Assembly (NCBI GenBank): GCA_051294905.1
Contig: CM119372.1
Location: 9,984,001 to 10,048,000 of the forward strand
DNA from: Botryllus schlosseri
Taxonomy: Eukaryota
Length of the DNA stretch: 64,000 nucleotides
Reading direction: 5' to 3'
Part shown: positions 27 through 60,518 of the stretch, one piece after another
How positions within the stretch are numbered: position 1 is the first letter of the stretch
How the letters are laid out: the number at the start of each line of letters is the position of its first letter
Position numbers and translations under genes: made by a program
The notes under the pieces: generated by a model
The model's database searches: none
Told to the model about the DNA's origin: nothing
What the model saw: the letters and a program-made list of their open reading frames with translations, nothing else

Positions 27-3000
27 ATGAACAGAACCATGACTATATTTACTGATTCATCAGTATCATCAGCAATCGCCAATGCAACAGGAGATGCGAC
101 TACCATCACGTAAGAAATGTATATGATCTATATATTGTGTTTTGCAATGAATTATTGAATATCGAACAACTTCACTTAACGAGATAACCTGAATTTTACT
201 GTCTCAATCCTAATGATACAGCAGTCTCTTTCTTTTATAGAAGCTCCGCAAAATTTTATAGAACATAGGTGTAAGTGCATGTGAATCAGCGAACTGTTGC
301 GTATGGTACGCCTAATCGAGGGGTGTTCAACCTCCTTGATATTCACGGCCATGCTTCGATTCCAAATATAGCATACGGCCGCATCATTCCGGCGGAGACT
401 CGTCATGGCTAATCTCTACGTCATTTACTCATGATAAATCGGCTACTGGGAACTTCACACTGCGGAGGGACTTGTGGTGTACTGTGCCATCACTGATTTT
501 TTAAGATATACTTTACGTATAAAAGTTTTTATTTGTAGCAGAAGAACACCTCCGCAGGCTTACTAAAATCGCGAGCAAAAAGTTATGAAAGTTTTTTTGA
601 TTCCCTTTCGAGTCGCGCAAAGCGTGAAAATATTTTCCATCTGGAAAATGTATTTCGTCGATAAGGTTGGTGGTTCCATATATTACTGCCATCAGGGCAT
701 CCAGCACAGTGGCTTCCAAACGCGCGACCCCCCTCCCCCCCCCAGAGACACCCTGGCTCCGCCCCTGCCACGATGTAAACTGCTCTATTTGTGGGTTTCT
801 CGCAGAAAGTACCAATTCAATATTATTGAGCTATAGCGACGGTTTCCTCGAGAATCTTTATCGACAGATATCGCCAGCGGAACACATATGAACTCCATCC
901 TGTTCTACTCCAAAAGGAACCAATAATAATTACATTACCAACTTTTAAATGAGGATAAACATTTGCTTTTGATATCACAAGAGGAATGAAACTTACAAGC
1001 TTACCCGTACGATTGTACGATATTGCACACCCGGTCAACATGTTTTGAAGCATAAACTTGCCTGTTTATTGTGATGGCTGTGGTCATCGGTCTATATTAA
1101 TTCGGAACTGCTGGTACACCCTATCTGAGTAGTACACCCTTTTAAGATTTTGGTACACCCTAGGGCAGGGGTGGGCAAACTTTTCAGCTCGCGGGCCGCA
1201 TTCAACATCTGAATCCATTCGCGGGCCGCGCTATAAATAATTGGGATTATAAACCAAAACGCAATATTGGTTTCTGATTATATAGTGAAGACATGGAGAT
1301 AATATATATGCATATTAAAACCAAACCGAACATTGCTTTGATGATATCGTACACGCGTCAGAAACGGTAGCGAGATTTCATAGGCTGGTCGACCTCAATA
1401 AACAATTTGTCGAAACTATCAAGATGAAAGTCGGTTTTCCCGATTCTTAGAACAGGATTGAAATTGAAATATCTATGAAAAGCGATCTGTTCATGGATAT
1501 ACTCTTTCCACTATTGGTTCAGTTCTAGGCCACACAATGGTGACAGCATCATAGCCATGTTAGAGTCAAACACGCTTCTACTATGTGCAGATAAAATATA
1601 AATACCCTAATTCTACGCATACAGAGAACGAATCTACCTAAGACACGCGCGAATCGTTTTAATTAGCATATCACTGAAATAATTTAAACTGGAGTGGCCA
1701 ATTTGAAATCCCACTCGTGATCCGAATTATTCCAATCTCGTTTAGAATTTCTGTGATGTTTCGCTTTTCAAACTGCGTGGGCCTTAAGATGGCGCTGTCG
1801 TGCCAGAAATTAAACATGAAAAATATTATAGGAAGAATTTACCTTAGAACAGTGGTTCTCAGACTTTTTAAGACACGCCCTCGCTATGACAGTGAAAGAT
1901 TTCGCGCCCTCCCCTTTTATCGTCATATCACAAAACACAAACAGAATACTAGAAAACCTAACGGATAGTTTAATGGCATGGAAGGTTACGACTGTGGATG
2001 AGAGATTTTTAAATATGAAATTAAGACTAACTACAGAGCAACAATTATGAAATGGATGGAAATCACGCTGAGCGCAAAAAAAAATCAGTTGAATCGAGCT
2101 TCACGCCCCCCTTCAGATGCTTTTCACGTCCCAAAGGGGGCCCACCCCCCAGTTTGCGAACCCCTGCCTCAGAATTATCATGGTGAAATATAGGCCTACT
2201 TAGAAAAAGTTCCATCAAATCCCTGCATTAATTCATACTCTCTTCAAGCGCGAAGTATGTACCTGCAGCAAAAGTGCAGGGCCCCGCTACAGGATTTGTA
2301 CATCCAGCAGCAGCAACAGCAGCGTAATCTTCATCAAAGAAAACTGGTCAGCTCGGTGGCTTTGCTGCAGCAGCTCTGGGCGAACGACGCCAGCGCTACT
2401 AACCGATTTTTAGTGCGCATTTTCTCAATATTTTTTTTTAAGTTTCTTTGGACTCTCGCGGGCCGCACAGAACGGTGTTGCGGGTCGCATGCGGTGGTTC
2501 GCCCACCTCAGCCCTAGGGTTTACGATACACCCGGTTGAAGAGCACTGTACTAAATGAATAATGACCATGGCCACATAACGTGAAGTCAGCGTGGCATTC
2601 CTCTGGATCCCTGGTCACGTAGGCATTCACGGCAATGAAAAAGCGGACAGATTGGCCAAAACCGTTTCTGACTCCCCGCCGAATTACCGGGATTTGCCGA
2701 TGCTCTCGGAACAAGAAGCTCGCCGTATCGTACGTCGCCACTGCATGACGTTGTGTGATCAGGAATACCGTATATCCAAGAAAGGATGTCAATATAAATC
2801 CTTCAAATCCTCTGTTTGTGATTCTCCCTCTACTTGTGGGAACCGCCTTATAGATGACATCATGTTTCGTTTGAAATCTGGACATTGCCGATTGAACGCT
2901 CATTTGTTTAGAATTGGAATAGTTGAATCTCCATATTGTAGTTACTGCCGATACCCCGAAACCGTCGAACACTTTTTAATATGTTGTCCAAAATATGCTT

Positions 3001-6000
3001 TTCACCGTGAATTTCTTGTAGATAAATGTGCGCAATTGAAAGTGAATTTTTGTATTACCGATTTACTCCTTAATCCTCAAATAACGCCTTATGTTGTTGA
3101 ATTTGTGTTGTCGTGCAACCGCAATTTGTAACTGAGTTTATCATGCTATTCTGATAATTGATTTGTTTTCTTGTGCAACCGCCTTACCCTCGTGTTTTTG
3201 GTCCACCCTCGTGTCCTTGTGATACCGCCTGTTATGAACTGAGTTTCCGCCATTATTCATGTACAATGTTATTGGCCGTGGCGCAAAAGGCCGTCAGGCG
3301 ATAAGCGCCATTATTTATGTTTAATAAACAACAACAACAACCATGGCCACATAAACATGTACGATAGTATGTTACCTGTCTTCTATCGATAAGTTTTGTA
3401 TATGCTTAGCCTACATATAAATACCATCTATCTATGCGATCTGTTTTCAGGCCCTACGGAAAGCCGTTCGACGAGAGAGTAACATTCGTGATTGGGTTCA
3501 TTTTATTTACCTTCATGTTCTTCGGAATAGTCCTTAACGCAATAACTGTTGCTGTAATCATAAAGTACCAAAAATTGAGGTATACGATTCCTATCCTGCA
3601 CGTTGGTTTCTACAGTTGTCGGACCATATATTTTGCATTCCAGAAACATATTTTCCATTTTTATATTTTCCTTGTGTCTGTCGGACATGTTGTCAGCATT
3701 GATAAGTCCACTCTACTGGTATAAGAGAACTCTTGGATTCGACGAGTGGAAACTACCAGGTTTCTTATGCAAGGTAAATAATTCACACATGACGTCTTTT
3801 TACTGATACTTATTTCGTTCTATATGATACACATCATCACAGTTTTACTGGGCAGCAGACATTACGACGTCTTTTGCAACGGCAATGCATATCGTGGCAT
3901 TCGCAGTATTCCGTTTGATCTCTGTGTCGTGTCCACACGTTATTGCAAAGCTCCAAATCAAGGTTGCTGTTGTAAGTTACTGAATATTCATTCATTCAAT
4001 AATTCATAACTCATAATTGGGACGATTTTGGTGGCCTAAAAACGGAGGTTTTCGACCTAAAAAATGACTATTTTGACATTTTTTTACCTTCAAAAACTTA
4101 ATTTTGACAAAACTGTGCCCTGACGTAGGCTATGTAGATTAGGTGTTTTCGCAAATAATGTTATAATTGTAGCCTAACTCATCTTAATTTCTTGATGGAA
4201 CTGACTTAAAAACTGACAAATTTTTACGTGAAAAAACTTTATTTTAACTAAATCTGGACTTATGAAGAATTCTAGTAGTTACTTCACTCATTATGGTAGA
4301 AATAATGAAAAAAATTTGTAGCACAACGAAAGATACTTTCCTACGTTCTCGAGTAGAAATAAGTGCCTGTTCTTAGCTTGCCAGGAACTGGGAAAGAACG
4401 TTTAACACCAGCAGTTCTTGACTGGCAACACTGAAGTTATGCGTGCACTGCTGGTGACACAACGCGTTGCTCCATTGTGACAATGTTGTCTACTTCGCAA
4501 TTTTTCATCATGCGCTTCTTAATATAAGAACCAAGGCCCACGCAGTCTTGCTTCAGTTAGGATATTCCGGTACGTTGAGCATAACACCACATGTCATCCT
4601 ACTTGTTTTATTTGACCGTTTATTATTCACAGTGAGCAGACAATGGGCCGTCTACAACGGCAGGCCTTCAGGGTTGTCATCAACATGGACCCAGAAATAA
4701 GGATAGTCGAAAAAAGAGCGATTTTGTACGCACTTTGTATTTGTAGGAGCCGTGGCAAATCACATTCTATACTTTTTGCAAGAAACAATCTGCTGCAGCA
4801 ACTCCTTGTTAATAGAAAGTGCTTCGTGGATCTCACGACAGATCAGATCCAGGTTTACCTTTACTTGTAGCCAGGGCCGTAACAGCACTTCGTCAGGCCC
4901 CCCCCCAAAACGTTGGTATTAGGCCCCCCATAGTGTGATAAATGCCCCCCAGACCCCCCTCAGCCTATACCCTGTTTATCGCTACTTATCATCTACATTG
5001 GGGAGTTGTTTAGTGAGCAAGCTTTTGTCGCCTAAGCGCGCGAAGCGCGAAAAATTTCTAGAATTGAAGATTGAATCGGTCAGTATGATCGGGAATTGCA
5101 TATATATTGTTATCAACTTTTATCTTCTCTCTGCTCACGTAATCATATTTGCCGGTAGAGCTGAGTGACATGTGTTCGAAAAGGTAGGAGCACTCAATAA
5201 TAATTAAACATCTTCGGGCGTATACCCGTTAGCAGGAACGAAACAGCACCTCATCAGGGAACCCGAAAACTTGGGTCTTGGGCTCCCATAGGATGATAAA
5301 ACGACCCCCCCCCCCTCCCCCAATCACGCTGTTCACGTTTGTCACGCAATTAGCTGTACCGTATAGTGAGCCAGCGCGATGCGCGAAAATTTTCGGTAAT
5401 TTCTGATAAAATCGGTCAATCAGATTGACAATTGCATATATATTGCTATCACTTTCTTGTCCTCTCTACTCACGTAATTAGATTTACCGGTAGAGCTGAG
5501 TGAAGTGTCTTGAAGACGGGAGGGCCCGTAAATAATAATTAAACATCCTCGGGCGGGCGGACCCGTTGATATGACTTCGTTACATATATGATGTTATTTC
5601 GTGACTTCCAGTCTGCTAAATCAAAAAATATAGAATCGCATGAACGTACTAAACTGAAAGACGCACACGATCTCAAATTGGTATTTCTTCATTGGCGTAA
5701 ATTTTTTCTCAGCGGGATGGTATTTGTCTTGTGAGGTTCAGATTGCCAAGACGGAAACATTCGCTGCCAGTCATTCAGGCGCCTATGGACAATTAAACCT
5801 ATATGTATTTTGTATATATAACGAAGTCTTCGGTCAGCATAACGGCATAGTCCTTTTCGGCAAAGGTTTTCTCGCTGCCGATCGTTCTGGCACACTTCTT
5901 GGACTCTCATGTTATATGGCTTAAAACTTGATTGTATGTCTTGGTGGCTCGTGGCGCGGTAATGGCCCAATACCCAATAATAAAGATAAATGGCATCTAG

Positions 6001-9000: not shown

Positions 9001-12000
9001 TATTTTGATTTAAAACAGTCTTCAGCGTGTCAAAATAAGAAGAATGTTCAATTTCTCAACTTTATAGTACGTCTGAGCCAATTTTTTGATCTACCGCAGA
9101 TATCGAAAATATGAGATTTTAGTCAAAATAGCCCCAATGGATTATCTCCAAAAATAGAGCCAATTTCAAAAAACCAAGGTCATATTCGGAATTAGTGCCC
9201 TTCAGATTCCCCAAAACCACTTTTACTTTGTCTGCATAAAAATATGTGTTGATCAGTGCTGTATGTGTAATATATTTAGATAAATTTATCAATGATTATA
9301 GCCTTACTACTTTTTAACCCACATGTTGACTGCACTGCGCCCTTTTTCACTATACGCGATAAATGCTGCCTCACGCACAGCTTATTCAGTTGTAGACCAA
9401 ACAGCGGAAACCTGGTACTGCTGTTTGTTAAAATGACGTCCGCTGCGAGAGCTTGGTACAGCCGCTCACTGCCTTAGCTATCTTACCACTTGGAAGTCGC
9501 TTAGCGCGATGTTTCTCGTACGCGCCTTGATTGTGAGAATAAAGTATCATAGATACACTAAAATATAGACCGAGGCCGTTGGGTTGCTGGAGTTTTCAAC
9601 GAAGTAATTAATAAGAATGAACCCGCCCGAAGTTAATAATCCGCGACAAGCTCATGAATATATATTCTTATGGCATGTACGATGTTAAAAAGAAGCCACT
9701 TGCTCTTACACGCAGCAATATCATTGATCAAATTCATTCATTTATTCAAAAAATCTTCGCACTCCGCGCGACTAGAAGCCAAATGAACACTGATTTTCTA
9801 TAACGTTCATATCTGATTTGGACTCGCCCGTGAATCGGTCGCCTGATACCAGATATAGTTCTCAACTGCAAGAATGTGTTCGTCTCTGAATTGTATGTAC
9901 AAAGGGTAGTGCAGGATAGGATGGACGGATCTGTGACGCGTTCCCGCGGGAGATTTCCCCTAAACTCATAAAACATTCAGGGATACTATCCGCCTTATCT
10001 TTATGTTTCCCTATCCGGCCCGCCGGATGGAGAAGTTGCCCGTCCCTGATCTATACAATACAAATGAAATGAAGGTTGCAAAAACATTTCAACTTTGTAA
10101 ACAATTTTGACAAAATTTTGACTTATATTAACATACCAAAAAAATCGCCCGACTGATAATACAACGTATTTTAAATATGTATATTAAATAAATATTTTGC
10201 TTTAAATGCCCCATAACTATAGTATTCGATAACATTTATAATGAAAATACCTGATAGTATATCGTTTATAATTATTGTCGAATCACCAAAATTATCTGCA
10301 GAATTTATCGTTATGTATAGCTACTTCATCAACATAAAATACTGAAATGTAGAATATGGAGTCTCTCGACCTACAATCCCTACGTTCATTTCATCCCATA
10401 AAGGGCTCTTCGCTGACATTGATTTAACTTAAAGTCATCACAGGTTGGTTCTGAACACCTACTCCGATCGCTTACCCAACTCGAAGGGCGCGTCAAATAT
10501 ATTTTAGTGACAACTGTATGCATAATCATTCCTAGGATACTGTGTCATTCTTCTCACGACCCTTATATAGATCAAGGATCTTCCACATTATTTAATTCCT
10601 AATTTCAGCTTATCGCTATAATGATATGGATCGTGAGTTTCGGATGTGCATTTGTGCCTATTTCGATTTGGTATGGACCTCGGATACTGGATCGCTACAG
10701 CGGCTTACCAGACGCACGGTGGACTGCATGCACCTTAAACATGGAATGGTAATTGCTATTACTTTTACACCTTGTTTTTTTTGTGTGTTATTCATTGTGT
10801 TTGTCGACTACAATGGTCATTTATACCAGGTCGATTGTCTTTTATTATTTTTTGATTCCGTATCTGAGCACGGCTAAAGTCTAGGCTTTTTTGAGACACC
10901 GCGTGCGTGGATCAGATGGCAAAGAGGAGCCTAGTAGATAACCCTCCAACACTTACGTAGAAATTCTGGAGTCGACCTCGGTCGGTCTCGAACCCGCAAC
11001 CCATCGGTGTTGCAGCTGCGGATAATATACCATACGCTGTCTCGCCAAGCTTAGAATATACATTGGAATCAATGATTGGACGCGGTTCGATAGTACTGAC
11101 ATCCCGGCCGATATTGAAGGCTGATACTGTTTCCCAATTTGGAGGTCTGGATCCAAAAATAATAAAATAATCAGTTACCTTGTCTATTATCGAAATACAT
11201 GATCACGCGGTGCGATTGATCAAGAAAAAGCAATGAGATGGCTTCAAAGTAAGCAGAGAACCATCGCTATTTCCAATTTAAAACTGAAATCTTCGTTCCG
11301 CATATAATCCTACACTGTAAATTCTGAAGTGTTGCTCAACCCGGAAAATTGAACACGAAACGTGATCCAAAAATTGAACGCCTAGAAGTGTTGCGAAGTG
11401 TTTAAATTAAAAGTGTTTACCTAAAAAGTGTTCAGCCTCAAAGTGGCTGGTTGACTAGTCACCGGAACGCAGGGCTCAAAATAAAATCAGATTTTATTGA
11501 TTCATGAATAGATGACGCTTATAATACCCAACCTGGGTGATTAAATACGTGCAAACATTGAAATTTCCAATAGCTGCTGTGACAGGGTTTCATAAATTCA
11601 GATCAGCAGTTGAAACCGTTTCCGGAATAGTCCATGAAATCACGAACATCAAAAATGATCGAGAGCAAACTCACTACAAATATCATGCAACTCGTTCAAT
11701 CATGAAAATGAATGCATAGCGAATTAGGGATAGTGATAACAAAATATCATTTAGTATCTTTAACTTTCGTGACAATGGCATGGAATTAAATTCATTGGTT
11801 ACGTCCGTTAACGGAAAACATGATCAACACAAATCAGTAAAACATATTCATAATTGATCAAATTATGGCTTGTAAATTTCTAATTTTATTGTAAAAAAAA
11901 AAAAAAACGAATATATCAGTTTCACTACCACTACCACGATAAACAAGTAATAAAGTATTTTTTTACTCTTAATGAAATTGGGCCTGCTAAGTGCTAACCA

Positions 12001-15000: not shown

Positions 15001-18000
15001 TTTAAAGAGTGGACATCAGTTGAACGAATTTGAGGAGCAATCCAAGACTATTGAAAAGAAATATTTGTTGCCAAAATTCGCAATACAAATGAACTGCTCA
15101 GTAATCACGCAGATATCATACTGGATACAGTTTTTTTTTCTGCAATAAGTTGTGCGTGACAGAAGGGTGTATTTCATAGAATAATTGAGTAATGGAATGG
15201 AAAGTTGCACATGACGTTACCACCAATTTTACTCTGGCACAGCTAGTATACTTCCTGGATCGTTAACAATTTTTGTGAAATTTTACCAGCAAACATTCAT
15301 AAAAATCTTTATCACAAAGATAACCGATTGCAATAGAATCAAATTCATTCTCTAAGGATATACCAGTTCACTTACAAAACATCGTGATGCTTACCAGTAT
15401 TCCATACAGCAAATGCATTTCAAAAAGGTGCCAAGTTCAATACATACTACCTGCAAAATAGAGTTTAGTTCAGTTACCGTATCACAATAAACTCAGAAAA
15501 GTCAAATTCGGGGATTGGGCAAAACAAATACTACCCCTTGTGATCCATGGTTTGTTGAAAAGATTGTTTGTTTGGCTGTGCTATTATTGGGGCGATTTTT
15601 TGGACCTAAAAAGGTAAGATTTTGACTAAAAAATTCAAATTCACACATATTTTGATGATGAAAAACTTAATTTTGACCCCATGTACTTAAATTAGGTGTT
15701 TCTCACATAGTGTTAGAATTGTATTACCGGAACTTAGCTTTATTTCTGGCTGGAGCTGTCTGTTCTTCCGAAGTAATTTGACCTGAAAAAATCTTTTAGC
15801 ATGAAAATTGACAAATTTTTACATGAAAAAGAACTTATTTTATCGAAATCTGGACCCATGAATAATTCTAGTATTAGTTACATCTCGTATTATGGTAGAA
15901 ATAATTAAAAATTTGTTGTAGTACAACAAAAGATACTTTCCGACATTTTCGGGTAGAAAGTGTCTGTCCTAACTAAGTAGCTTGGCAAGAATGAAGAAAG
16001 AACGTTCATCAGCTGCAGTTGTTGGCCGGCAACACTGAAGTTGTGCGTACACTGCACTCTCTCTCTCTCTCATTATGACAAAGTTGTCTACATCGCAATT
16101 ATTCATCATACGGTTTCTAATAGAAGAACCAATGCCCACGCAGTCTTGCTTCAGTTAGGATAGTGCAATAGGCTACGTTGAGTATTTGTTTCATTTGACA
16201 GTTTATGATTCACAATGAGCAGACGATGGTCCGTCTACAACGGTAGGACTATAAAGTAGGCTACAAGATGTAAATTGTAAAATGATAAGTTCACCGACAG
16301 TGCAGTCATCTATGATGCAAGTTGCCAACAAAATTTTGATTTTGTAAAGAATTTTGGCAATTTTTTACCTGACGGTACAATTTTGACAAAATTCTGACCT
16401 ATTTTGACATTTCAAAAAAAATCGCTTTAGTTAACACCTTACCACTTGGAATAAACAGTAGGCCTACAGTGTAAAATGTCTTGCAGTTGAAAAACAATCA
16501 AAACCGTTGCATGACTGTCATACCGGCATTCAATTGCTGACATTGCAGTACTTGTCCACAATGGACCACAATATCGCCTACATAGTGATATTTCAGTGTG
16601 GATAGAGAGAACATCCCTTTATCCATATGTCAAAAAAGTTACTTTTATAGCAGCTTCCCATCAGTACCGTAGTACTGGACCTGGTCGCAGCCTGGTATAT
16701 TATCAGATTCGAAGCTCGATCATCCAGCAATAAAATCAGACGAATCATATACTGCAAAACATCTGAAGAACATTTATATGAATAAGGGATATCAGTAGCC
16801 TGCTAAAACATCTAAAACAAACGACGTTACTGCAATGTCAAAACGAGTTAATTTTATGACTATTCTCACATTACATACATTCAATAACATTTACCGCATT
16901 TCCATACCTTACAGTACATGGATGTTATGATCCTTTACGCCATCAGGTAGCAGAAACTGCTTCAATATATCCATTTCGCCAAGTTTTTTCGTGTACCCTA
17001 CTCTCTGCCTGAAGCCTGACGAACCACCAATTCAAATCCAAACTGAAATCGAGCGCGCTCTACCGTAACGAAGGTTGTGACCCTTCCGCGTCACAGGGAA
17101 ATATGTATATTTCATTGAAATATTACCCTTAAACTTAGTGTTGGGTCAAGTGAGTAATATTATTTTACATATACCGTGATTTCATGTGATCTCCAAACGT
17201 AGCGATGGTTTATGAATGCAAAATTGATGATAAATAACCAGGTATAAATTTTCTTGAAAATAAGCCGCACTGGCGAAGTGTTACATGTAAACGGAGAAAT
17301 ACGCAGAAGCGTTGCGACGATAATGGCCCAATGCGTTTATATGCCCAAAAAGTGTGTCTGTACGCAGAAAAAAGTGTTATGAAGTGTTCAATACGACCTT
17401 GCGGATTTACAGTGTAGTTCTGGAAGGTTTACTGACTTCTCTCTTGCCTGGTTCTGGGTTCAAGCATTCTCTGAGCGAAGGCATACGCACTTGTGACGTT
17501 TAAATCATAACCCGTCCTGAACTTAATAAAGTATATAGGCATATATACGGATATACCTCATGAATTCTTCTGTCAAATAACAGGTACGGACAGTTTACGC
17601 TGTTCCAGAAGCTCGGGTATTCTCTGTTCCTCTATATACCTTTGATCCTCGTCCTATTTATATCTGTTCTCACTTGCCGTCGATTGTATGCTACTAACCA
17701 CTTCTCGATCACGCCAATAACAAAGAAAAAGCTGCAAAAAGAAAAACAAGCCGTTCTTCAATTGACACTCATCGTAGTATCGTTTATGGTGGGATATCTC
17801 CCGTTTACAGGTATATGTCGAATTTACTGACTTTTTACCAAAATACATGCTATGCGCTGAAAGTACAACCCTGCCGCAAGTTAACTACAATATCAGGTCA
17901 CTAGTCAAGAAGAAGGGAAAATCTGAGAAATCTGAGAAAAGAACTATCTAGCTTTTTTAGACATCTCCCTTCCAACAAAGGACAAATTTGAGAAATAAGG

Positions 18001-19923
18001 ACTGTATGGCAAACCTGTTTATATGCCGAGACCCAGCCATCTGGTTCATGAACCACGACTAAGCCCTATAATTTCTCACAGCTCTTTGTAACACTGCCGG
18101 CCTTGAACTGACCACCTAGATTACATATATAAATCACCAGACATCTGTGATAACGGCTGTCCTAAGATTATAATCCTGCAAGATTTACTGCGCTATATGA
18201 TAGGGTTACCATACGTCCTCTTTTAAAAGGATTTGTCCTCTATTTTGACTTTGTGAAAGAGTCCTCGGAAGACGCCCAAATGTCCTCTTTTTTGAGATTT
18301 GGTCCTCTTTTTTTAGATTTGGTCCGCTTTTTTTGGAATTTTGGTTAAATAGGGCAAAATCTGACTGACATAGAGTAAATCAGCACTGAAGTGACGCCGC
18401 GGCGACTATTTCGCGAGCTGAGCCTGAAAGTTGACCTTTTTAAGTTAACTGACCACTAAGTGGGAAAAATTTACCATTTCGTCAGGATTCTCATCCGGTA
18501 TCGCAAGTTTGAAAATTGGAAAAGTGTCCTCTTTTCAGATTTCCAAAATATGGTAACCCTACTATATAATATCTCAACTGGAGACTCTACTGCAGTGGTT
18601 CCCAAACTTTTTCGAATTGTGGCACGCTAGTAAAATTGAAAGCGGTCACGTCACACTAACAAGAGAATAATCGTTGCTTCAAAAACAAAAATATGTTTTC
18701 ACGTTTAATTACGGCTGGGCAAGATCGAGTGTACCTGAGTGATTAGATTATGAGGCTAGAATACTTAACTTCGATTCGAGTATAAGATGCGATGACGTCA
18801 TAATAGTAATCACCACTTGAAAAGTACCAATATGTAGCGGTTGTAGCCTATCCAGTTTTTAATGCTGAGCTACGGTCAACTAAGGCTTCACGGCTCCAAA
18901 GGCGGGGCTACATCATCGGAACTATATTTCTCTTCCATGTTACATTACTCTTGGTGTAAAGGTGTATATTTTCATTAGCGGAAGAAATTTCGCCTCACTA
19001 CTCGACTCGAATCATTACAATTGATACTCAGTTCAAGACAATCCCTCTCGTTTACAACTTTTGATAGTGTCAAAACCGGGGCTGTGTGTTTTAGTCCATG
19101 GAACCATACTTACCCTATATTTTCAATTGTCAATATCAATCCGCGGTGTCGTCGTAATTAAAGATACGTGACGTTATAGCTAAAAAAACAATAAAAAAAT
19201 GTTTTAGACATGCTTGTATAATTTGATTTTTGTTAACCCAAGGGGTTGGGGTTCGAAATCAAAATCCAGTCATGCTGAAAGGGCAATTCTATCTCCAATA
19301 TTTTAGCTCATTTGCAATTAAGACACAGCAACAACAACTGTTTCGTTTCGTTGGAGCAATACGAAAGCGCGTTCTAAGAAGAAGCCTCGCATTGCAAATT
19401 GGTCTCTGAAAGGGAATAGCAGAAGTCTCAATACATGTTTATTACTGTTCGCGAAATCATAGCGAATATGAAATCATATTTCAATGCGTTTGTTCCTTTA
19501 ACAAGCTGTTGACGCACAGCTCATTTCACGCACCTGCAATCTATAGCAATGTATTGGGTGTGTATACTTATATGCATAAATGTCGTCGAATTTATTATAA
19601 AACGTGAAGAGCCGCTTACCTATATATTCAGTAGGATTCGTGCACAAAGTAAATATTTACCTTTTCCAGCATATGAGTTCTGGTCGGTGCAATATCATGG
19701 AAGTTCTCAGTATTACCTAGCAGTTGAATACTACTTCGGAGCAACTGAGTATATTCTCCTACGTTTATCCGAGTGCATGAATCCTGTCTTCTACAATCTC
19801 GGCTCTACGAAGATGAGGAAGCACAGCGTTCTTTTCATTCGGGAACTATTCAAGCTGAAGCCAAAATCGAAGCGATCAGCTGTAGCCAGTCCTTATCATG
19901 GAACAGGCAATACCAATGTATAA
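27..19923 (+). CDS. Class A (rhodopsin-like) orphan GPCR, paralog 1; 7 coding exons, 363 aa
   Basis: Exons 27-109, 3451-3579, 3644-3773, 3843-3971, 10609-10748, 17584-17810, 19670-19923; all introns GT..AG, phases compatible, total 1092 nt without internal stop. N-terminus MNRT..ANAT has N-glycosylation sequons; TM1 GIVLN, TM2 LCLSD, ECL1 W..C, TM3 FRL in place of DRY, TM4 W, ECL2 Cys, TM5 YIP, TM6 GYLP, TM7 NPVFY. Confidence 0.93.
1166..2511. mobile_element. Non-autonomous hAT (Charlie-like) element
   Basis: Ends CAGGGGTGGGCAAAC / GTTCGCCCACCTCAG, perfect 8-bp TSD CCCTAGGG (1158-1165, 2512-2519), GCGGGCCGC subterminal motifs. Confidence 0.85.
1850..2166. mobile_element. hAT MITE nested in 1166-2511
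   Basis: Ends CAGTGGTTCTCAGAC / GTTTGCGAACCCCTG, TSD CCTTAGAA/CCTCAGAA; related copy near 12180-12470. Confidence 0.75.
2580..3340 (+). mobile_element. 5'-truncated non-LTR retrotransposon of the RNase H-bearing I group
   Basis: ORF 2592-3131 has the RNase H end WIPGHVGIHGNEKADRLAK and C-terminal zinc knuckle CSYC..ETVEHFLICCP; AATAAA+(CAA)n tail; 14-bp TSD CCATGGCCACATAA (2566-2579, 3341-3354). Confidence 0.92.
4872..6154. mobile_element. hAT (Tip100-like) non-autonomous element
   Basis: Ends CAGGGCCGTAAC / GTTACGGTGCTG, perfect 8-bp TSD CTTGTAGC (4864-4871, 6155-6162); internal direct repeat of about 200 bp (approx. 5035-5230, 5375-5570). Confidence 0.8.
7827..9258 (+). mobile_element. 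Chapaev-3-like (CMC) transposon relic
   Basis: Degenerate frames KLKYAIFDGSQIR, HKAPNYKQLV, GANMSIKSYFLFRHL, GERLHKYI..RYQ..MADYCW match recalled Chapaev-3 C-terminal motifs; ends TATTGGTCAAC / GTTGATCAGTG; empty site in the related element at approx. 30228. Confidence 0.72.
10885..11047 (-). mobile_element. tRNA-derived SINE
   Basis: Minus strand: A-box-like GGCGAGACAGCGTATGG, B-box GGTTCGAGACC, body GTGTTGGAGG..GGCTCCTC similar to the SINE at 53146. Confidence 0.6.
13410..15460 (+). repeat. Diverged direct tandem duplication (approx. 13410-14470 and 14600-15460)
   Basis: Shared strings such as TAGGACTGCAAAAACCAGCA, GACTCCTCACGTCACT, TTTTACCAGCAAACATTCATAAAAAT. Confidence 0.8.
15589..16428. 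mobile_element. GGGCGATTTT-terminal element, uninterrupted copy
   Basis: Homologous to 4019-4668 plus 10070-10150 and to approx. 61842-62445. Confidence 0.65.
18201..18561. mobile_element. hAT Blackjack-like MITE
   Basis: TIR TAGGGTTACCATA / TATGGTAACCCTA, TSD CTATATGA/CTATATAA, GTCCTC subterminal repeats. Confidence 0.85.
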
Positions 19924-27470: not shown

Positions 27471-27544
27471 ATGTCATCTTACAATTCATCGACTGCGATG
27501 GCTAAAAGTCACGGATTTCAATCGTTGAACGAATCCTCGACGCC
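27471..27544 (+). CDS. Extra first coding exon (paralog-3 type): alternative first exon of paralog 2, or orphan relic
   Basis: ATG..CC|GTGAGT, 74 nt, phase 2, MSSYNSSTAMAKSHGFQSLNESSTP; homologous to 55983-56056, with about 400 bp of upstream sequence also homologous (approx. 27050-27470 vs 55600-55980). Confidence 0.6.
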
Positions 27545-39400: not shown

Positions 39401-42400
39401 GGCTATATTCTGTGAAACTTGGGTATTGCGGTCGGTGTGTGACAACTATGGCTATCAAGCATTTGTCATGTAGAGTCGTGATAAGTGAATAACCAGGAAC
39501 CGATAGTGGGACATATATTATTGTAGTCCAACTTCATTTAGTAACGTAGAATACATGTTGAGAATCCTTGCTTCCTGCGGCCATGAAAACCTGGAGCTTC
39601 AATCGCCTTCTCTTCGGTGCATTTTCTGTCTGAATTGCTTCTACTTGCATTTGTGACACGGATATGGGACTGCGGGGGACTCTACTCTGACATCGTTTCC
39701 GAATTGTTTTTATTCTTAATCGCAGCTTATCGCCCTACAGATATGGATTGTGAGCTTTGGATGTGGCTTTGTGCCTTATTGGATTTGGTTTGGAGCGCGG
39801 AAAAGAGATCGCTACAGCGACTCACAAGACGCACGATGGCCGGCATGCACCATAAACATGGAATGGTAATTCGCATTACTTCAAACGTATCATAGATAGA
39901 TACGGTTCGTTGCCTTTCGATAACACTGGCATTACGATCAAATCCTCATGTCGTTTCTTTTTTCAATCTAAAGGTCTGCATCTGAAAAAAGGGAAACCTA
40001 ATAAAAATAATCAATTGCCAATATGGAAATACATGAGACTATGTAACATGTTTTTTTCCTTGGGAATTAATTGTTAAAATACAAATTCTAAATCACAAAT
40101 TACACTCGCGCTGGCATTATACCTTCGAAATCAGCATTATTTCCTATAATATTAAAGTCAGCATACCTTATGGGACTCTTCTGTTGATTAACAGGTACGG
40201 ACAGTACACGATGTTCCAGAAGATCGGGTTTTCTCTGTTCCTCTATATACCGTTGATCCTTGTCCTATTTATATCTGTTCTTACTTGCCGTCGGGTGTAT
40301 GCTACTACCCACGCCTCCATCACACCAGTAACAAGTAAAAAGCTGCAAAAAGAAAAACAAGCCGTACTTCAACTGACTCTCATCGTAGTGTCGTTTATGA
40401 TGGGATATCTCCCGTTTACAGGTATATATGTCAAATTTATTGAGTTTTTATATGTATATAAGAACTGCCCTGAAAATATTAGAATCAATAAGAACAGACA
40501 AACGACAACAAAAGCTTACTGCAGCAGTCCTGGAATCAAGTCTTCAAATCCCATATAATTTCGAATCACTGCAAATTTTGACTCTAGTCAAGTCAAGTCA
40601 TTTCAAAAACTCTAAAGTCAAGTCACGAGTCAATTACCGCAGATTTTTTGAAAGCAACTCGACTCAAATTAAGTAATCTCGAAGGTTTCGGTTTCGAGTC
40701 AGTGTCAAATCATGAAATATGTTCAGTTTCTGTCGTTCGATTTAAATGTGTGGATGCCTGTGCAGTGTGCATAGTTGCATATACGATATGACATATCGAA
40801 CTAGTAAAACTTGGCCCATTGCCATTTCCAAACCACCAAAACGATATGAGGAGCCGCAGTTATTTATGTAAATTGAAGTCCATGCCAGTCGAATCACGAT
40901 TTTCTGATGACTCGACTTGACTTGACTTTGTATTGACTCGACTTGGACTCGAGTCATTGCGGATGACTCGAACCAAGTCATATGACTCGAGACTCAGACA
41001 GCCAAGAAAGACATTTCATTGTAATTTGGAAGAGTAGCATTTCGTCTATTGGTACTGGTAAATGAAAATGAGACCAGAAACTGCTAAAAGTGAGGAAAAT
41101 TAGTATATTATAAATGCGAACCATTTGATGTCACCAAACAGACTTGTAAAAAGTGGGTTTAATAACACTTTAACTGGAAACTGAGCAGTCAACATAATGA
41201 CTTGGACTCGGACTCGATTCATAATACCATGACTCGGACTCGGACTTGACTCGGAGGTGAATTGAAAATGACTCGACGTGATTCGAGCTCGGAGCCTTTT
41301 GACTTGGTTACAACCCTGGTCCATGCTACCCATAAGGCATGCTCCATTCAAAATATTATCGGAGTAAATGACGTTTATTGACTGAAATGCTGCACGAATG
41401 CTATAAAGCAGTGATTCCCGACCGTGACTCTCAGAGCTGCATGCGGCTCCAAGGTAGCCTTCTTCCGGCTCTGATTGACCTCTAAATATGCCACAGTATA
41501 TAATAGACGACAGTTGTTGTTTGTTCCTATAAATAGGTACAGTCAATATCCATATATGAATGCTAAAATGAGGGATATCAGCTATGTTTAAAGCCGTCCA
41601 GATTTCGCGTCATTTAGCGTTGCCTGTCCATTGACCTGGCTGTCAAAGCTATGAAGGAGAACGAATTGCCAGAAAGGAGGACATTTGGGCGTCCTGGGAG
41701 GCCATTTTCGATTTCCTGAAAAAGCAAAACAAATCCTCCTAAAGGAGGGCGTATGGTAACCCTAGGTAATAAGATTATAACGACCGACAATGCTATTATG
41801 ACGACGGTTAAGGGCGTGCCGAAGATTTTGTGCCTGTGATGTTGTTGCTGGTGGAGCTAACCAAATCACAAACGTAAACTGAAATACGATGCAGTTAATA
41901 AAGGACTAGGATTGATTGCGTGGCCTTACCAAGTAGAATATTCGGTGGATTGAAAATCGAGAAATCGTCACACCATATTTTTCATATGTCAAGTCCGAAT
42001 CAAGTCATGGCAGTGACTCGAGTCATCCCAACACTGTATTGCAGAAGTGTGAGTCTAGACGTCTCCTTTTTCACTTCTTCATTAATATCGACCAACAATC
42101 AATATAGTTCCGATCTGCATTTACGTTGTTTGTATGTCGGCCATCTGGTTCATGAACCAGGGCCACTCTTTAATTCATTTCATTAATTTATTTCTTTGTC
42201 AGACTGCTAGCCTTGTCCTGCCGACGCAGATTACATTGAAATCATCCAACTTCGATAACGACTGTACTGAAACTATATAATCAGGTCACATTTGCCATCT
42301 AATGTACATGCGATATCTGAACTAGATACGATAATGTTTTCGCAACATTTATGCTTGCGCGGCTGGTCATTGCAATTGGAGAGCAAGCATTGAGTATTAA

Positions 42401-43112
42401 TACAATGTAATTGCGAACGTAGCGTTACCCTGTAGCAGTGGTTCTCAACCGGGCTACTGCGACACTCTGGGATGCCGATTGCGGCATGGTATCTGCGACA
42501 AAATGAGTAAAAAATAGAAATTAGGAGCATCCAAATTTTGAGTAGCATTTGGGAAGCTGATGACTGAAAATGGTCACCGGCAATGAGTAATTGATATTAC
42601 CGAAAGTGATAATTTTTTTTCTTGTTGCCAACATCAGAATATGCGGCTTAACAGAGATATGACATAGGTTGATGACCTTGTTTTAATTCATCAGCATCCC
42701 AAACATGAACTTAAGCTAGCCTACTTGAAGCGCTAGGGTGCTGCAAGCTTTTTTCACCTTTCAGAAAGTGCCGCGAGGTCAAAAAGGTTGAGAGCCTCTG
42801 CGGTGTAGTCAACGATGATTAGTGTACATTGTACAGCGTATATAAATGTGTTTTTCAGCATATGAGTTCTGGTCGGTGCAAGATCATGGAAATTCACAAT
42901 ATTATCGCCTAACTGACTACTACTTCGGTGTAACTGAGTATATTCTTCTGCGTCTATCCGAATGCATGAATCCTATCTTCTACAATCTTGGTTCTTCAAA
43001 GATGAGGAGTCACACCGTTCATTTCATTCGGGAACTGTTCAAACTGAAGTCGAACGCGAACCGATCATCTCCATCCACCCCTAGTCACGAAACAGGCGAT
43101 AACAATTTATGA
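36491..43112 (+). CDS. Class A orphan GPCR, paralog 2; 7 coding exons, 363 aa
   Basis: Exons 36491-36573, 36774-36902, 36969-37098, 37163-37291, 39726-39865, 40195-40421, 42859-43112; exon lengths (83,129,130,129,140,227,254) identical to paralog 1, GT..AG introns, open frame ending NPIFY...GDNNL*. Confidence 0.93.
40525..41318. mobile_element. hAT-type MITE with GAGTC/GACTC subterminal repeats (paralog 2 intron 6)
   Basis: Dense AAGTC/GACTC/GACTT arrays, right end GGTTACAACCCTG; left boundary approximate. Confidence 0.55.
42436..42800. mobile_element. hAT Charlie-like MITE
   Basis: Ends CAGTGGTTCTCAACC / GGTTGAGAGCCTCTG, TSD CCCTGTAG/CGGTGTAG. Confidence 0.75.
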
Positions 43113-55982: not shown

Positions 55983-58900
55983 ATGTCATCTTATAACTCA
56001 TCCACCGCGATGCCGAAAAGTCGCGGATTTGAGACGTTGAACGAATCTTCAACACAGTAAGTATATACCCCATATACATTGATGGATTGTTGGGATCAAG
56101 TCAGTATCTCCGAACCGCATGTTACTTCGAGTGAATGCTAATTTTAACTCGGGCTAAGTCAATTCATCACAAAATCAATCAAGTCAAATCACGACATTTT
56201 CAAAATGATTCGAGTCAAGACAATTCATCAGTCGTCTGAGGTGATGCACCCATGCAGATTGCAAACAACAGGAGTTGAACCCGCCCGGATGCATATCGGC
56301 TATAGCAATGGACCGCGTCAAAATTGGTATCATGCGACGTAAAAACTACTAGGACAGTGGTTCTCAACCGGTTTTGCTTCGCCGTTTTTTATTTCATAAC
56401 TGATATAATCAGGGATCACATCAGCAGAATTGTCGTTCGTGATAATATATGTACTATATACAAATGCACTTCAATTGCTGCCTCTAAGCCAGGGTGCGAA
56501 ACTAAATTTGAGTCATGGGACAGAACAGTCATTTCATGTGAAAATGTTATCTCAAAATTCCGACCTTTGTGTTGCAGTGGAATGCTTCACTGTCAGTTAT
56601 TCTGAATCAGGGGGCCACGAAACTTGTTAACTTGTCACATGATTGACAGTATAATTTATGATTTTCTGAGCTACGCTAGATCATATGAAGCAGTTTTGTT
56701 TCATAACCGACAAAACCTCAGGCCTAACATCAGCAGAAAGGACGTTTAAGATGAAATATCGTATTGTGCAAACTCATGTCAATTTCCTGTAAGGAGTGTA
56801 AGCGATTTTGTCAACGATTCGGCCCACATTGTTGGTGCCGGCGGTTAAAAAGGTCGTTACTGTTTAAACTTACCGATATCGAGGTTTACGTAGCAGCTTA
56901 ACCAGCAGATGGTGACCGATCAGGGTAATTCCGGAATGTATAAATCATTTCAGGACTTGAAGCTGTTAGTCTCAGTTAGAGCCCGACCGATTATCGGCTC
57001 GCCGATAATATCGAGTCGATATCACGCTTGGAGAGAAATATCGGTATCGGCCATTGAAGGTAAAAAAAATATCGGCCTTTTTCGTGACGTCACAACATGG
57101 TGGCAGGGAGTCAGAGAAGTCGATAGAAGACGTGAGGGTGGTAAATTATAAAAATAAATGGCCCAAGCTGCATATAGTGCATGCTGCATAGAGGGCAGTA
57201 GGCGTTCCTATCTGAAAAATATTGTAGATAACTAATCACCGTTATGCCCCGCTGACTTCGCGGGAATCCCCCTGCAGTAATCAATCGATCACCAAAGACA
57301 GAGAGCAGCTGGGACCTGGATGGATAGTTGTCTGCAGAAGATTTCAATCAGTAAGAGAAATGAGAACTTCAATCATGCTGGACTGGCCCTCGTGATGATA
57401 GAGAAAAGCGTCGCGTCGAAACGTTTCTCTGAAGATAGTGCTATTGGTTCGGTACCAACAGAGCTAATTATACCAGTAATGTATGAAGTCGTATGACACT
57501 CTGACTGAGGGCTGAGACCTGCGGGGCCACCATGATAGGAAATATGCGAGCATAGAGGGAAAGAAAATCAAGCAAAGGTGGAGTAAAGCCAATAACAGAT
57601 CCGAACATTTTTGATTCCATGATGACATTGGCCAATTCTGACAAGAGAGCGTAAAATATTGATCAATTGATTGTTGAAATGCTGGTCATGGTCAAGGCCC
57701 AAGGGGGATGGGTGGAGCAGTTGCAGACATGGACAATTTGAGTTGTTTTCAACTTTCTCTTCAGCTATTTGTTGACGATGTGCTGAAGGCTCCAGGTGCT
57801 CTGCCAGAAGAATATCAATATTTGGTGAAACCATTGAAAGGAAAGATCCCCTGCAAGGGAGCGGTGGAACCGAAATGAAGAAAGATTTCCAATCCTTGCT
57901 GTGCCACTAGGTACCAAGTGAAAGACTGCTCACTGTGTTTAGTACTATATACATCATTTATGAAAGACCACAGAAGTTCACTCCTTGGAGAAAGCGCCGA
58001 GAAATTGTGCTTCGTGAACTGTAATCTGCAACTGCTGGATTGGTGCTTTTGATATATTTTTATAGCCCCTAGATCATTTATTTCATGTTCAAGCATATCA
58101 ATGGCTGTAAAGTTGTTGAAATAAATGCTCTGAGGTGTTAAATACGGGCCTTGAGCTAGATTCCATACATTTTGAATATCGGCTGAATATATCGAGGTTA
58201 TCGGTGGAGGTACTGGATATCGGTGTTATCGGTATCGGCTCAGAAATCCAATATCGGTCGGGCTCTAGTCTCAGTGCATAGAAAAGCAGGAAAGTAGTGT
58301 TCAACTGTAGCTTGAAAACGAAATCCTTAAGTATTTTCAAATTTGACCAAAGGGTTAGAAACCTTTTCATGGAACCCATTTTCTGCTGCGATTGATAATC
58401 GTTACGCGTTATTATTCCATTCGCCTTTACCTATATCTGTGGAAATTGGATTTTGTCTCGCCTGCAGGTCGAATCGAAAGTAGGGCTGAGCAAAATCGAG
58501 AACCTGAGTGATTCGATTCTGAACCACGGAATATGCTTCGAGTCGGGCCGAGTAATCGAGTATCAATCAGTATGACGCTATAACATAATGTAATATGTCA
58601 AAGTTCAAATTTGTACCTTTTCTGCGACCAAAAAGAATATAATGCCTGTTATCCATCACATTAAAGATACTTTCGGCCATGCACCGAGTTCATTGAACTT
58701 GGTGACAATGTTGTGGGATGATCATGGCTTCAGAAATGTGCTATTTCCAGTAGGGCTCGTAGCTTGTACTATATTGCCTCGTATGCTACGATACGGCCAA
58801 TCAAAGTTTGAAAGCTTCAACAGTGAAAATTAGTAACGAAGCTATAATAATGGTTGATAAATTAACTTTTAGTGGCGAGGAGCGTATAATTTCAGTTTTC

Positions 58901-60159
58901 GAAAAAAATCGTCTTTTACTACTCGACTCGAATCATTAAAATTAATACTCGGAGCAGATTCGAGTACTCGAATCTTTGTGACCAGCCCTAATCGACAGCT
59001 CGCTAGATGAGATGCCACTAGCGATTTCCAAAGCACGAACACATATTTCAAGACTTTCAACTGAAACGAAGCAGCCGAAATCCCAACGTTAATCCGCTTT
59101 GAAACAGAAAGGTATTCACAAATTTCACATAGGATGATGTTATTTTCAACTCAACAAAAGCACAACATATTATTCGATGACTTTCAAATTGACTACAATA
59201 TTTCACTCCGAGTCGCGAGTCATTTCATATTTCTCATATGTCGTGGCTGAGTCCATTAGTCATGTGATTACGCACTTGGTTGAATACACTGTCCTTCAAT
59301 GTTACGTCGATTTTCCCTGTCTCGAGGCAAGTCAAATCCTCAAAAAGAAGTGACCCGAGACACCAACACTGCTCTGATGTGAGCGTCTGTGGCAATACCC
59401 GACTATAGCTACAGAGATTAGGGTCAGTGCAAAACGAAGTAATATTCCTACCCGATTTTGCTGAAAGTCGTTGAAGTCAGGACTCTGATGAAGTACAGCA
59501 TATCGATGATTTTGGATGATCATTCTGCCTTATTTGTTGAGAAATATGATTCTTATTGAATCGATTCTGTCACGATTCGAACTGCCCATCTCTTGTCATT
59601 ACGTATTCAGATATTATAAGGTGGTGATTAACAATTCTCTCTGCTTTTAGACCTTACGAAAAACCGTTCGACGAAAGTGCAACATTGGTGACGGGGTATA
59701 TTTTATTAACCTTCATGTTACTTGGAATTGTTCTCAACGCAATAACTGTTGCTGTGATCATGAAATATGAAAAATTGAGGTACCAGTTACATTTATTTCT
59801 GTGGTTGTAGTGTGACTCTATATTATCGCATTTCAGAACGCTATTTTCCGTGTTTATAATCTCATTGTGCCTGTCGGATATGATATCAGCATTGATAAGT
59901 CCACTTTACTGGTATCACAGAACTCTTGGATTCGAGAAGTGGAATTTACCTGTAGTGTTGTGCAAGGTAGAACAAAATGACGTCTTTTTACCGACGCGAA
60001 TGTCATTTTATATTATATACATTATGACAGATCTACTGGGCATCTGACATAACGACTTCTTTTGCAACGGCTATGCACATAGTGGCATTCGGAGTCTTTC
60101 GTTTGATATCTATGTCGTGTCCACTTGCCACGGTAACACCGCAAACCGAGCTTGCTGTG
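55983..60159 (+). CDS. Class A orphan GPCR, paralog 3 (exons 1-4; remainder presumably beyond window end)
   Basis: Exons 55983-56056 (MSSYNSSTAMPKSRGFETLNESSTQ, phase 2, donor GTAAGT), 59651-59779 (PYEKPF..GIVLN), 59837-59966 (LCLSD..LCK), 60031-60159 (IYWASDITTSF..FRL). Exons 2-4 match the paralog lengths; exon 1 is inferred from phase, sequons and donor. No exon 5 seen before 64000. Confidence 0.85.
56977..58267 (+). mobile_element. Ac/ZBED-type hAT deletion derivative in paralog 3 intron 1
   Basis: TIR TAGAGCCCGACCGAT / ATCGGTCGGGCTCTA, perfect TSD GTCTCAGT, ATCGG repeats; dimerisation-domain relic NEERFPILA..PSERL..HRSSLLGESAEKLCFVNCNL at approx. 57845-58050. Confidence 0.88.
58481..58990. 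mobile_element. hAT MITE (TAGGGCTG family)
   Basis: TIR TAGGGCTG / CAGCCCTA, TSD ATCGAAAG/ATCGACAG; family copies at 60519-60996 and approx. 18712-19035. Confidence 0.82.
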
Positions 60160-60511: not shown

Positions 60512-60518
60512 ACATACC

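What the first reader, a model, noticed from the sequence alone, without database searches (positions are those of the whole stretch)
27..60159. Tandem expansion of an orphan multi-exon class A GPCR family hidden in transposon-filled introns
Seen: two complete paralogs and a partial third in the same orientation with identical exon lengths and phases, plus an inverted pseudogene and a spare first exon. Inference: a lineage-specific birth-and-death receptor array of the kind formed by chemosensory or peptide receptor expansions. I cannot assign a named orthologue.
Basis: partly seen in the sequence, partly recalled or inferred. Interest (0 to 1): 0.75.

Follow-up and report, generated by a model that had tools for sequence, protein, structure and literature searches.

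The report
Sea-squirt ghrelin-receptor-like gene cluster
This is a real cluster of duplicated cell-surface receptor genes in a sea squirt, part of a tunicate-wide family distantly related to the ghrelin receptor whose natural signal is unknown; one copy keeps an ancient binding loop while its neighbour has changed it.

Summary
Observation confirmed. Genes A (27-19923) and B (36491-43112) each have seven exons of identical length and phase, GT-AG introns and an open 363-codon frame (80% identical, dN/dS 0.37). C (55983-60159) is open as far as the window reaches. D (minus strand, 25573-24872) is a deleted, frameshifted pseudogene. The spare first exon lies at 27471-27544.

The family is not confined to this lineage. 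Relatives occur in Styela (53% identical), Ciona, Clavelina and Oikopleura, where databases auto-label many 'GHSR-like'. A/B/C form their own clade (100/100) beside Styela paralogues, so local duplication is real. Profile and fold searches rank ghrelin, motilin and neurotensin receptors first. Their E3.33-R6.55 lock is absent; the family instead has near-invariant D3.32 and R7.43.

B's second extracellular loop is 25/27 identical to Styela and Ciona receptors, while A's is 18/27 identical to B. This favours a conserved endogenous ligand, probably a peptide, over odorant sensing. RNA coverage is low and exon-restricted; no splice junction was seen. Verdict: an ordinary kind of array in a real, apparently undescribed orphan receptor family.

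The parts
27..109 (+). Gene A exon 1 (ATG, N-terminus with two N-glycosylation sequons), 83 nt, phase 2
3451..3579 (+). Gene A exon 2 (TM1), 129 nt
3644..3773 (+). Gene A exon 3 (TM2, ECL1, C3.25), 130 nt
   Evidence: Pfam 7tm_1 E 0.0032
3843..3971 (+). Gene A exon 4 (TM3 with D3.32 and F-R-L in place of DRY; ICL2), 129 nt
10609..10748 (+). Gene A exon 5 (TM4, diverged ECL2), 140 nt
17584..17810 (+). Gene A exon 6 (TM5, ICL3, TM6), 227 nt
   Evidence: Pfam 7tm_1 E 8.8e-5
19670..19923 (+). Gene A exon 7 (ECL3, TM7 with R7.43 and NPxxY, C-tail, stop), 254 nt
24872..24986 (-). Pseudogene D: first 60 nt of exon 4 (24986-24927) fused out of frame to the last 55 nt of exon 5 (24926-24872); end of TM3 and all of TM4 deleted
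25249..25378 (-). Pseudogene D exon 3, 130 nt, open frame, D2.50 replaced by His
25445..25573 (-). Pseudogene D exon 2, 129 nt, open frame; no first exon found for D
27073..27544 (+). Spare C-type first exon (27471-27544, 74 nt, phase 2, GT donor) with about 400 bp of homologous upstream DNA; frame-compatible with B exon 2
36491..36573 (+). Gene B exon 1, 83 nt
36774..36902 (+). Gene B exon 2, 129 nt
36969..37098 (+). Gene B exon 3, 130 nt
37163..37291 (+). Gene B exon 4, 129 nt
39726..39865 (+). Gene B exon 5 (TM4, ancestral-type ECL2), 140 nt
   Evidence: stranded read depth in X1
40195..40421 (+). Gene B exon 6, 227 nt
42859..43112 (+). Gene B exon 7, 254 nt, stop
55983..56056 (+). Probable first exon of gene C, 74 nt, phase 2, two sequons; no detectable similarity to A/B exon 1
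   Evidence: its join to C exon 2 is inferred from frame and position only
59651..59779 (+). Gene C exon 2, 129 nt
59837..59966 (+). Gene C exon 3, 130 nt
60031..60159 (+). Gene C exon 4, 129 nt; followed by an 87-copy 4-nt microsatellite (60168-60515); exons 5-7 not in the window

Best explanation
A tandem array, in a styelid-like ascidian, of seven-exon class A GPCR genes. They belong to a tunicate-wide family that branches from, or near, the ghrelin/motilin/neurotensin receptor group. The receptors most likely bind an endogenous, tunicate-specific secreted peptide through a conserved ECL2 and a polar pocket (R2.64, D3.32, E6.55, R7.43). An inferred D3.32-R7.43 lock replaces the E3.33-R6.55 lock of the vertebrate group. 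B keeps the ancestral binding surface. A and C are younger local duplicates, and A is drifting in ECL2, probably towards altered ligand preference. D is an older paralogue killed by an internal deletion. SHOWN: gene structures, purifying selection, family membership, clade, residue conservation, low exon-restricted RNA coverage for B or a paralogue. INFERRED: splicing, peptide ligand, the salt bridge, G-protein signalling, changed specificity of A.
For: Exon models and open frames; dN/dS 0.37 for A/B and 0.24-0.29 against C. Spliced B aligns to Styela P0002 at 53% over 356 aa. Against 5 database relatives, only 1 of 30 junction positions coincided with an alignment gap. All 23 named proteins of 30 looked up from the exhaustive profile search were tunicate, as were all 24 named of 28. 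A family profile against PDB ranks ghrelin receptor 143 bits, motilin 124.5, neurotensin-1 122.5, then beta-1 adrenergic 100. The AlphaFold model of P0002 (pLDDT 89, seven long helices) ranks ghrelin receptor first by Foldseek. Across 53 aligned rows, R7.43 is 50/50, D3.32 45/52 (plus 3 E), E7.46 51/51, H3.42 52/52 and Y6.48 49/49. B's ECL2 is 0.93 identical to both Styela P0002 and Ciona P0093, against 0.39 and 0.32 for TM1; A/B ECL2 identity is 0.67, with 7 A-derived and 0 B-derived changes. A Botryllus preprint reports a gene labelled GHSR marking a neuroendocrine-like neural-complex cluster (PMC13622670, passages); whether that gene is in this family was not testable.
Against: No ligand or signalling data. 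The defining E3.33-R6.55 pair of the ghrelin/NMU/neurotensin group (PMC9019041) is absent: 3.33 is Ile and 6.55 is Glu. Identity to the ghrelin receptor is only 20-21% and Foldseek E-values barely separate it from opioid or somatostatin receptors. No tree with vertebrate receptors was built. D3.32 is also the amine counter-ion of aminergic receptors (established knowledge), so a small amine fits too. The faster rate of A was significant with 1 of 4 outgroups (24:6, p 0.0014; the others p 0.56, 0.32, 0.087). No exon-exon junction appeared among the 15 joints shown (15 hidden), one of four runs had no exon coverage, and reads at 80% likeness may come from paralogues.
Confidence: 0.6

Rival explanations
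1. The receptors bind a conserved endogenous small molecule (a biogenic amine or other cationic metabolite) rather than a peptide, with ECL2 acting as a lid.
For: D3.32 in 45 of 52 rows. Short N-terminus. Aminergic receptors and rhodopsin score next after the ghrelin group.
Against: The best profile and fold matches are peptide receptors. A long charged ECL2 kept at 25/27 between distant ascidians fits an extended ligand. R7.43 would partly neutralise D3.32 (inference).
Confidence: 0.17
2. The family supplies tunicate external chemoreceptors, replacing the missing odorant receptors, and the array diversifies to detect environmental cues.
For: Multi-copy family with at least 26, 11, 8 and 1 distinct sequences at 90% identity in Styela, Clavelina, Ciona and Oikopleura among those retrieved, independent local expansions and a pseudogene. 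Ciona lacks olfactory-subfamily receptors (PMC2396169). A's changes concentrate in ECL2.
Against: The pocket is nearly invariant within the subfamily across three genera, the opposite of odorant-receptor hypervariability (established knowledge). dN/dS is well below 1 overall. The family is small. The candidate tunicate chemoreceptor family described so far (KH.C3.516) has no BLAST hits outside tunicates (PMC7397655), unlike this one.
Confidence: 0.15
3. Only B is a working receptor; A and C are redundant recent copies on the way to decay, and the array is neutral turnover in a repeat-rich region.
For: D is already dead. A carries most derived changes against Styela P0002. Expression of A and C was not examined separately.
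Against: A has an open 363-codon frame, intact splice sites and all pocket residues. dS is 0.31-0.60 with dN/dS 0.24-0.37, which requires long selection on the copies.
Confidence: 0.08

Closest known systems
Uncharacterised ascidian RefSeq proteins auto-labelled 'growth hormone secretagogue receptor type 1-like' and similar (Styela clava XP_039267545 = P0002, Ciona P0093, Clavelina P0094)
   Same: 53%, 48% and 46% identical to B; same pocket residues; ECL2 0.93, 0.93 and 0.81 identical to B. The Styela sister genes share one contig, and one RefSeq model fuses two receptors (742 aa, two 7tm_1 stretches), which suggests tandem copies there too.
   Different: A/B/C sit on a long branch of their own (0.56-0.66 changes per column). 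The labels are automatic and inconsistent (opsin-, NMUR-, dopamine-, galanin-like).
Vertebrate ghrelin (GHSR), motilin, neurotensin and neuromedin U receptors
   Same: Best solved-structure matches by profile and by fold; class A core motifs kept.
   Different: About 20% identity. E3.33-R6.55 lock absent (Ile, Glu). D3.32, R7.43, E7.46 and H3.42 present instead. ERY becomes F/L-R-L/Y and CWxP becomes GYxP.
Deorphanised Ciona peptide receptors Ci-LF-Rs, Ci-YFV-Rs, Ci-NTLP-2-R, Ci-GALP-R (PMC6475428)
   Same: A precedent for tunicate-restricted, locally multiplied GPCR clades that bind tunicate-specific neuropeptides (section read).
   Different: By eye, none of the 9 sequences in Dataset S3 resembles this family; 8 of them were shown cut at about 400 residues. 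Four family motifs had 0 hits in the three supplements.
Tunicate-specific 7TM family of Ciona KH.C3.516 (PMC7397655)
   Same: Tandem, tunicate-expanded 7TM genes, proposed as chemoreceptors (passages).
   Different: [quoted passage not shown] The sequences were not compared directly.

Membership tests
Class A (rhodopsin-like) GPCR | Seven transmembrane helices, extracellular glycosylated N-terminus | tested here: met
   Hydropathy peaks cover TM1-6 in A and B, TM7 did not pass the threshold; sequons at residues 2 and 19. The model of the Styela relative P0002 has seven long helices plus helix 8, pLDDT 89. The window proteins themselves were not folded.
Class A (rhodopsin-like) GPCR | PF00001 7tm_1 above gathering score | tested here: met
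   Met through relatives: 5 of 5 full-length relatives score 83-180 bits, cut-off 30.5. Single window exons match in 5 of 15 cases, each below the cut-off.
Class A (rhodopsin-like) GPCR | N1.50, D2.50, C3.25 with ECL2 Cys, R3.50, W4.50, P5.50, P6.50, NPxxY | tested here: met
   All present in A and B (ECL2 Cys). Numbering taken from the alignment to the ghrelin receptor and from motifs; TM2 positions may be off by one.
Class A (rhodopsin-like) GPCR | Canonical (D/E)RY and CWxP motifs | tested here: not met
   3.49 is hydrophobic (F in A/B/C; L29 I8 F8 M3 of 51 rows); 6.47-6.48 are G-Y in 49 of 49 rows. These are variants of common motifs, not disqualifying.
Ghrelin/motilin/neurotensin/NMU receptor group | Best sequence and fold match among characterised receptors | tested here: met
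   the margin is modest in Foldseek.
Ghrelin/motilin/neurotensin/NMU receptor group | E3.33-R6.55 salt bridge (PMC9019041) | tested here: not met
   A and B have I3.33 and E6.55; across the family 6.55 is E22 R9 H5 of 51.
Ghrelin/motilin/neurotensin/NMU receptor group | One supported clade with the vertebrate receptors | not tested
   No vertebrate sequences of the group were held as proteins; the trees are within-family.
Ghrelin/motilin/neurotensin/NMU receptor group | Activation by ghrelin-, motilin- or neurotensin-type peptides | not testable with these tools
   Needs a cell assay.
Opsins (several database labels say opsin-like) | Retinal-binding lysine at 7.43 | tested here: not met
   Arg in 50 of 50 rows.
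Birth-and-death multigene array | Tandem paralogues forming a lineage-specific clade, with pseudogenes | tested here: met
   A/B/C clade 100/100; D broken. D groups weakly (80/77) with Styela genes; holding A-D together is not rejected (p-AU 0.46).
Birth-and-death multigene array | Genome-wide paralogue count | not testable with these tools
   No whole genome is held for this window.
Chemosensory receptor expansions | Hypervariable ligand pocket among paralogues and species | tested here: not met
   A and B differ at 3 of the 53 positions tabulated (4.57, 5.43, 7.36); the key pocket residues are shared with Styela, Ciona and Clavelina. ECL2 does differ between A and B.
Chemosensory receptor expansions | Expression in peripheral sensory cells | not testable with these tools
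   Read laying gives no cell identity.

The most novel reading that the evidence does not exclude
Tunicates turned a ghrelin/motilin/neurotensin-type receptor into their own multigene system by rewiring the pocket: the acid moved from 3.33 to 3.32, the base from 6.55 to 7.43, and 6.55 reversed charge. The B/P0002/P0093/P0094 group reads one ancient, still unknown tunicate hormone. Fresh duplicates such as A are being retuned in ECL2 to new ligands, possibly external ones, and are given new expression domains by alternative or swapped promoter-first-exon modules (the spare exon spliced onto B). The family would then be a peptide-receptor-derived sensory repertoire in animals that lack odorant receptors, and 'GHSR' labels in ascidian cell atlases would be misnomers.
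Probability: 0.15. Interest if true: 0.72.

Novelty: new member of a known kind. Interest (0 to 1): 0.4.

Why it matters
Tandem GPCR arrays are common, so the locus alone is ordinary. The value lies in the family. It is tunicate-wide, already sits in databases under misleading automatic names, and I found no paper describing it in nine searches. The library lacks most subscription papers, so this is not proof of absence. The near-identical ECL2 of B, Styela P0002 and Ciona P0093 points to a conserved undiscovered ligand and names the best receptor for deorphanisation in Ciona. The A/B pair is a ready-made natural experiment in ligand divergence. It also warns that 'GHSR' in ascidian expression atlases may not be a ghrelin receptor.

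Tried and rejected
A word-based homologue search with B exon 6 found nothing (0 of 79 candidates); the exhaustive profile search later found the family, so the blank reflected low sensitivity. A nucleotide search for a third copy of the A/B-type first exon found none; the spare exon is of a different, C type. The weak match near 45664 was inspected and rejected. No RNA holder was listed by the run finder. Laying reads at 80% likeness was meant to catch paralogues but let repeat-derived reads fill the tables, so junction rows may be hidden. Opsin identity was rejected (Arg at 7.43). Identity with the deorphanised Ciona receptors was rejected by eye and by motif search. Motif search in four supplements of PMC2396169 gave 0 hits; its sequence file may not be among those held, so membership in its 23 'Other Rhodopsins' is unknown. 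Alleles or haplotypes as the source of A/B were rejected (dS 0.31, different intron sizes and contents). The spare exon as D's own inverted first exon is unlikely: it is far closer to C's first exon than D is to C. ESM Atlas gave only generic 7tm_1 clusters. Rfam and ARAGORN found nothing. Rows dropped: the fish chemokine-receptor protein P0127 and the long-branch P0126 were removed before the residue counts and the tree. Earlier scan notes held no report on this family.
Full report
OBSERVATION. A self-comparison of the window showed blocks shared between three regions on the plus strand. Reading them in frame and joining them by coordinates gave two complete genes. A spans 27-19923 and B spans 36491-43112. 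Both have seven exons of 83, 129, 130, 129, 140, 227 and 254 nt, phases 2,2,0,0,2,1, GT-AG introns throughout, and 363 codons without a stop. They are 80% identical in protein, with dS 0.31 and dN/dS 0.37. C has exons 2-4 at 59651-60159, open, with dN/dS 0.24-0.29 against A and B. Its later exons are not in the window and probably lie beyond its end.

PSEUDOGENE AND SPARE EXON. D lies on the minus strand (25573-24872). Exons 2 and 3 keep their splice sites and frame, but part of exon 4 is fused out of frame to part of exon 5, removing TM4. D2.50 is His, and exons 6-7 were not found. A scan of both strands for ATG-to-donor exons with glycosylation sequons found four loci: the first exons of A and B, and a second type at 27471-27544 and 55983-56056. 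The latter two are homologous over about 500 bp including upstream DNA. Of their 11 differing codons 7 are synonymous only; counting bases, 9 of 13 changes are synonymous (p 0.0013 against a neutral 26%), so both were coding. The exon at 55983 is the natural first exon of C. The one at 27471 is either an alternative first exon of B, to whose exon 2 it joins in frame, or the remnant of a deleted C-like gene. I could not separate these.

REPEATS. 31% of non-exon bases are repeated within the window. Two 1.35-kb elements have terminal inverted repeats and 8-bp target duplications, the hAT pattern (pattern from established knowledge). One of 36 other ORFs matched RNase H weakly and one matched DUF5690 weakly.

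WHAT THE GENES ARE. Single exons matched Pfam 7tm_1 in 5 of 15 cases, each below cut-off. An exhaustive HMMER search with a profile of exons 2-3 returned 87 proteins. Of 30 looked up, 23 carried names and all 23 were tunicate: Styela, Clavelina, Ciona and Oikopleura; 57 were not looked up, and some low-ranking ones may be other GPCRs. The best full-length relative, Styela P0002, is 53% identical to B over 356 aa. Against five relatives, one of 30 junction positions coincided with a gap, which supports the splice model without RNA. Among short genomic ORFs in the hit list, 24 of 33 with the TM2-to-Cys motif continue with Val where exon 3 ends here, as expected if the donor GT lies at the same place. 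Val also follows in 10 of 48 full-length proteins. Searches with P0002 and a 41-sequence profile found 28 and 34 proteins; all named ones were tunicate except one fish protein, a chemokine-receptor type by my reading of its sequence, at a much lower score. These two searches filter by shared words and did not return vertebrate ghrelin receptors, so they do not prove that the family ends at tunicates. Distinct sequences at 90% identity among those retrieved: Styela 26 (two annotation versions may inflate this), Clavelina 11, Ciona 8, Oikopleura 1.

TREE. A, B and C form a clade (100/100) on a long branch, sister (99/96) to three Styela genes from one contig. Adding D places it weakly with those Styela genes (80/77), and a single A-D clade is not rejected. 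The host is therefore most likely a stolidobranch ascidian near Styela (inference); other notes on this genome also call it a sea squirt (unchecked). Each lineage appears to have multiplied its own copies.

NEAREST CHARACTERISED RECEPTORS. The family profile scores the ghrelin receptor 143 bits, motilin 124.5, neurotensin-1 122.5, beta-1 adrenergic 100, somatostatin-2 97 and NMU-1 89. The model of P0002 (pLDDT 89) ranks ghrelin receptor chains first, at 20-21% identity and with small margins. The E3.33-R6.55 bridge that this group shares (PMC9019041, passages) is missing: A and B have Ile and Glu. Near-invariant instead are D3.32 (45/52), H3.42 (52/52), R3.50 (51/51), G6.47-Y6.48 (49/49), R7.43 (50/50) and E7.46 (51/51). 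Positions 3.32 and 7.43 are neighbours in class A structures (established knowledge), so a D-R bridge is likely; I had no coordinates to measure it. Arg, not Lys, at 7.43 excludes an opsin. The proteins resemble the ghrelin group but should not be filed as ghrelin receptors.

MECHANISM. B's ECL2 is 25/27 identical to Styela P0002 and to Ciona P0093, while TM1 is 39% and 32% identical. A and B differ at only 3 of 53 tabulated helix positions, yet A's ECL2 is 18/27 identical to B, with seven A-derived changes and none in B when P0002 is the outgroup. The whole-protein rate difference was significant with one of four outgroups. A binding surface held constant between distant ascidians suggests a conserved endogenous ligand. 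Tunicate-restricted receptor clades for tunicate-specific peptides are known (PMC6475428, passages, section 8 and Dataset S3), but those receptors are not this family (the SI PDF was not readable). I give peptide ligand 0.6, small endogenous amine or metabolite 0.17, external chemoreception 0.15 and neutral turnover 0.08.

EXPRESSION. Four RNA runs were laid on B at 80% likeness, 3-13% of each run read. Single-cell run X1 gave depth on one strand orientation only over the bins holding exons 5, 6 and 7 (1.9, 3.98, 4.2 against 0), 0.12 over exons 2-3, and 0 over four neighbouring intron bins. X3 and X7 gave 0.3-1.5 over exons 6-7; X6 gave none. This fits low, 3'-biased expression of B or a paralogue. 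No exon-exon joint was among the 15 rows shown, and 15 were hidden. A and C were not examined.

LITERATURE. PMC2396169 (passages) lists 23 unplaced 'Other Rhodopsins' in Ciona and no olfactory subfamily. PMC7776563 (passages) says tunicates probably use alternatives to olfactory receptors. PMC7397655 (passages) describes a different-looking tandem 7TM family. PMC13622670 (passages; one supplement searched, 0 hits) uses 'GHSR' as a marker of a neuroendocrine-like cluster in Botryllus; its link to this family is untested. PMC7540406, PMC6504862 and PMC12176390 (passages) say nothing on it. Nine searches found no description of the family.

VERDICT. The array is a local expansion within a tunicate-wide, database-known but apparently undescribed orphan family near the ghrelin receptor group. 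New member of a known kind; interest 0.4, chiefly for the conserved ECL2 and the altered pocket that make a ligand hunt concrete.

Noticed in passing
window 46346-47696 and 49297-50654: Two copies, 95% identical, of a 1.35-kb element with terminal inverted repeats and perfect 8-bp target-site duplications; a non-autonomous hAT-type transposon.
   Followed up: partly
window 30235-31306: A nearly perfect 1.07-kb palindrome (nested arms 86-90% complementary, 11-nt centre), a foldback or MITE-like element.
   Followed up: no
window 2580-3131: 183-codon ORF in intron 1 of A with a weak RNase H match (E 1e-4, below cut-off), probably the 3' end of a non-LTR retrotransposon.
   Followed up: partly
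window 1153-2524: Element bounded by 28-nt inverted arms in intron 1 of A.
   Followed up: no
window 36903-36968: Intron 2 of gene B is 66 nt, in frame and free of stops, so retention would insert 22 residues into ICL1. Intron 2 of D is also 66 nt but has stops.
   Followed up: no
window 60168-60515: 87 copies of a 4-nt repeat start just after C's exon 4 donor; A has a few copies of the same unit at the matching place.
   Followed up: no
window 38278-38518: Strong RNA pile-up in B intron 4 (depth about 300 per strand in X7) from reads that run on into other sequence: a repeat expressed elsewhere.
   Followed up: no
window 43238-44280 and 48102-49276: An old inverted duplicate (67-85% identical) just downstream of B.
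   Followed up: no
P0088 (Styela RefSeq model, 742 aa): The database model joins two receptors of this family into one protein, probably an annotation fusion of tandem genes.
   Followed up: partly
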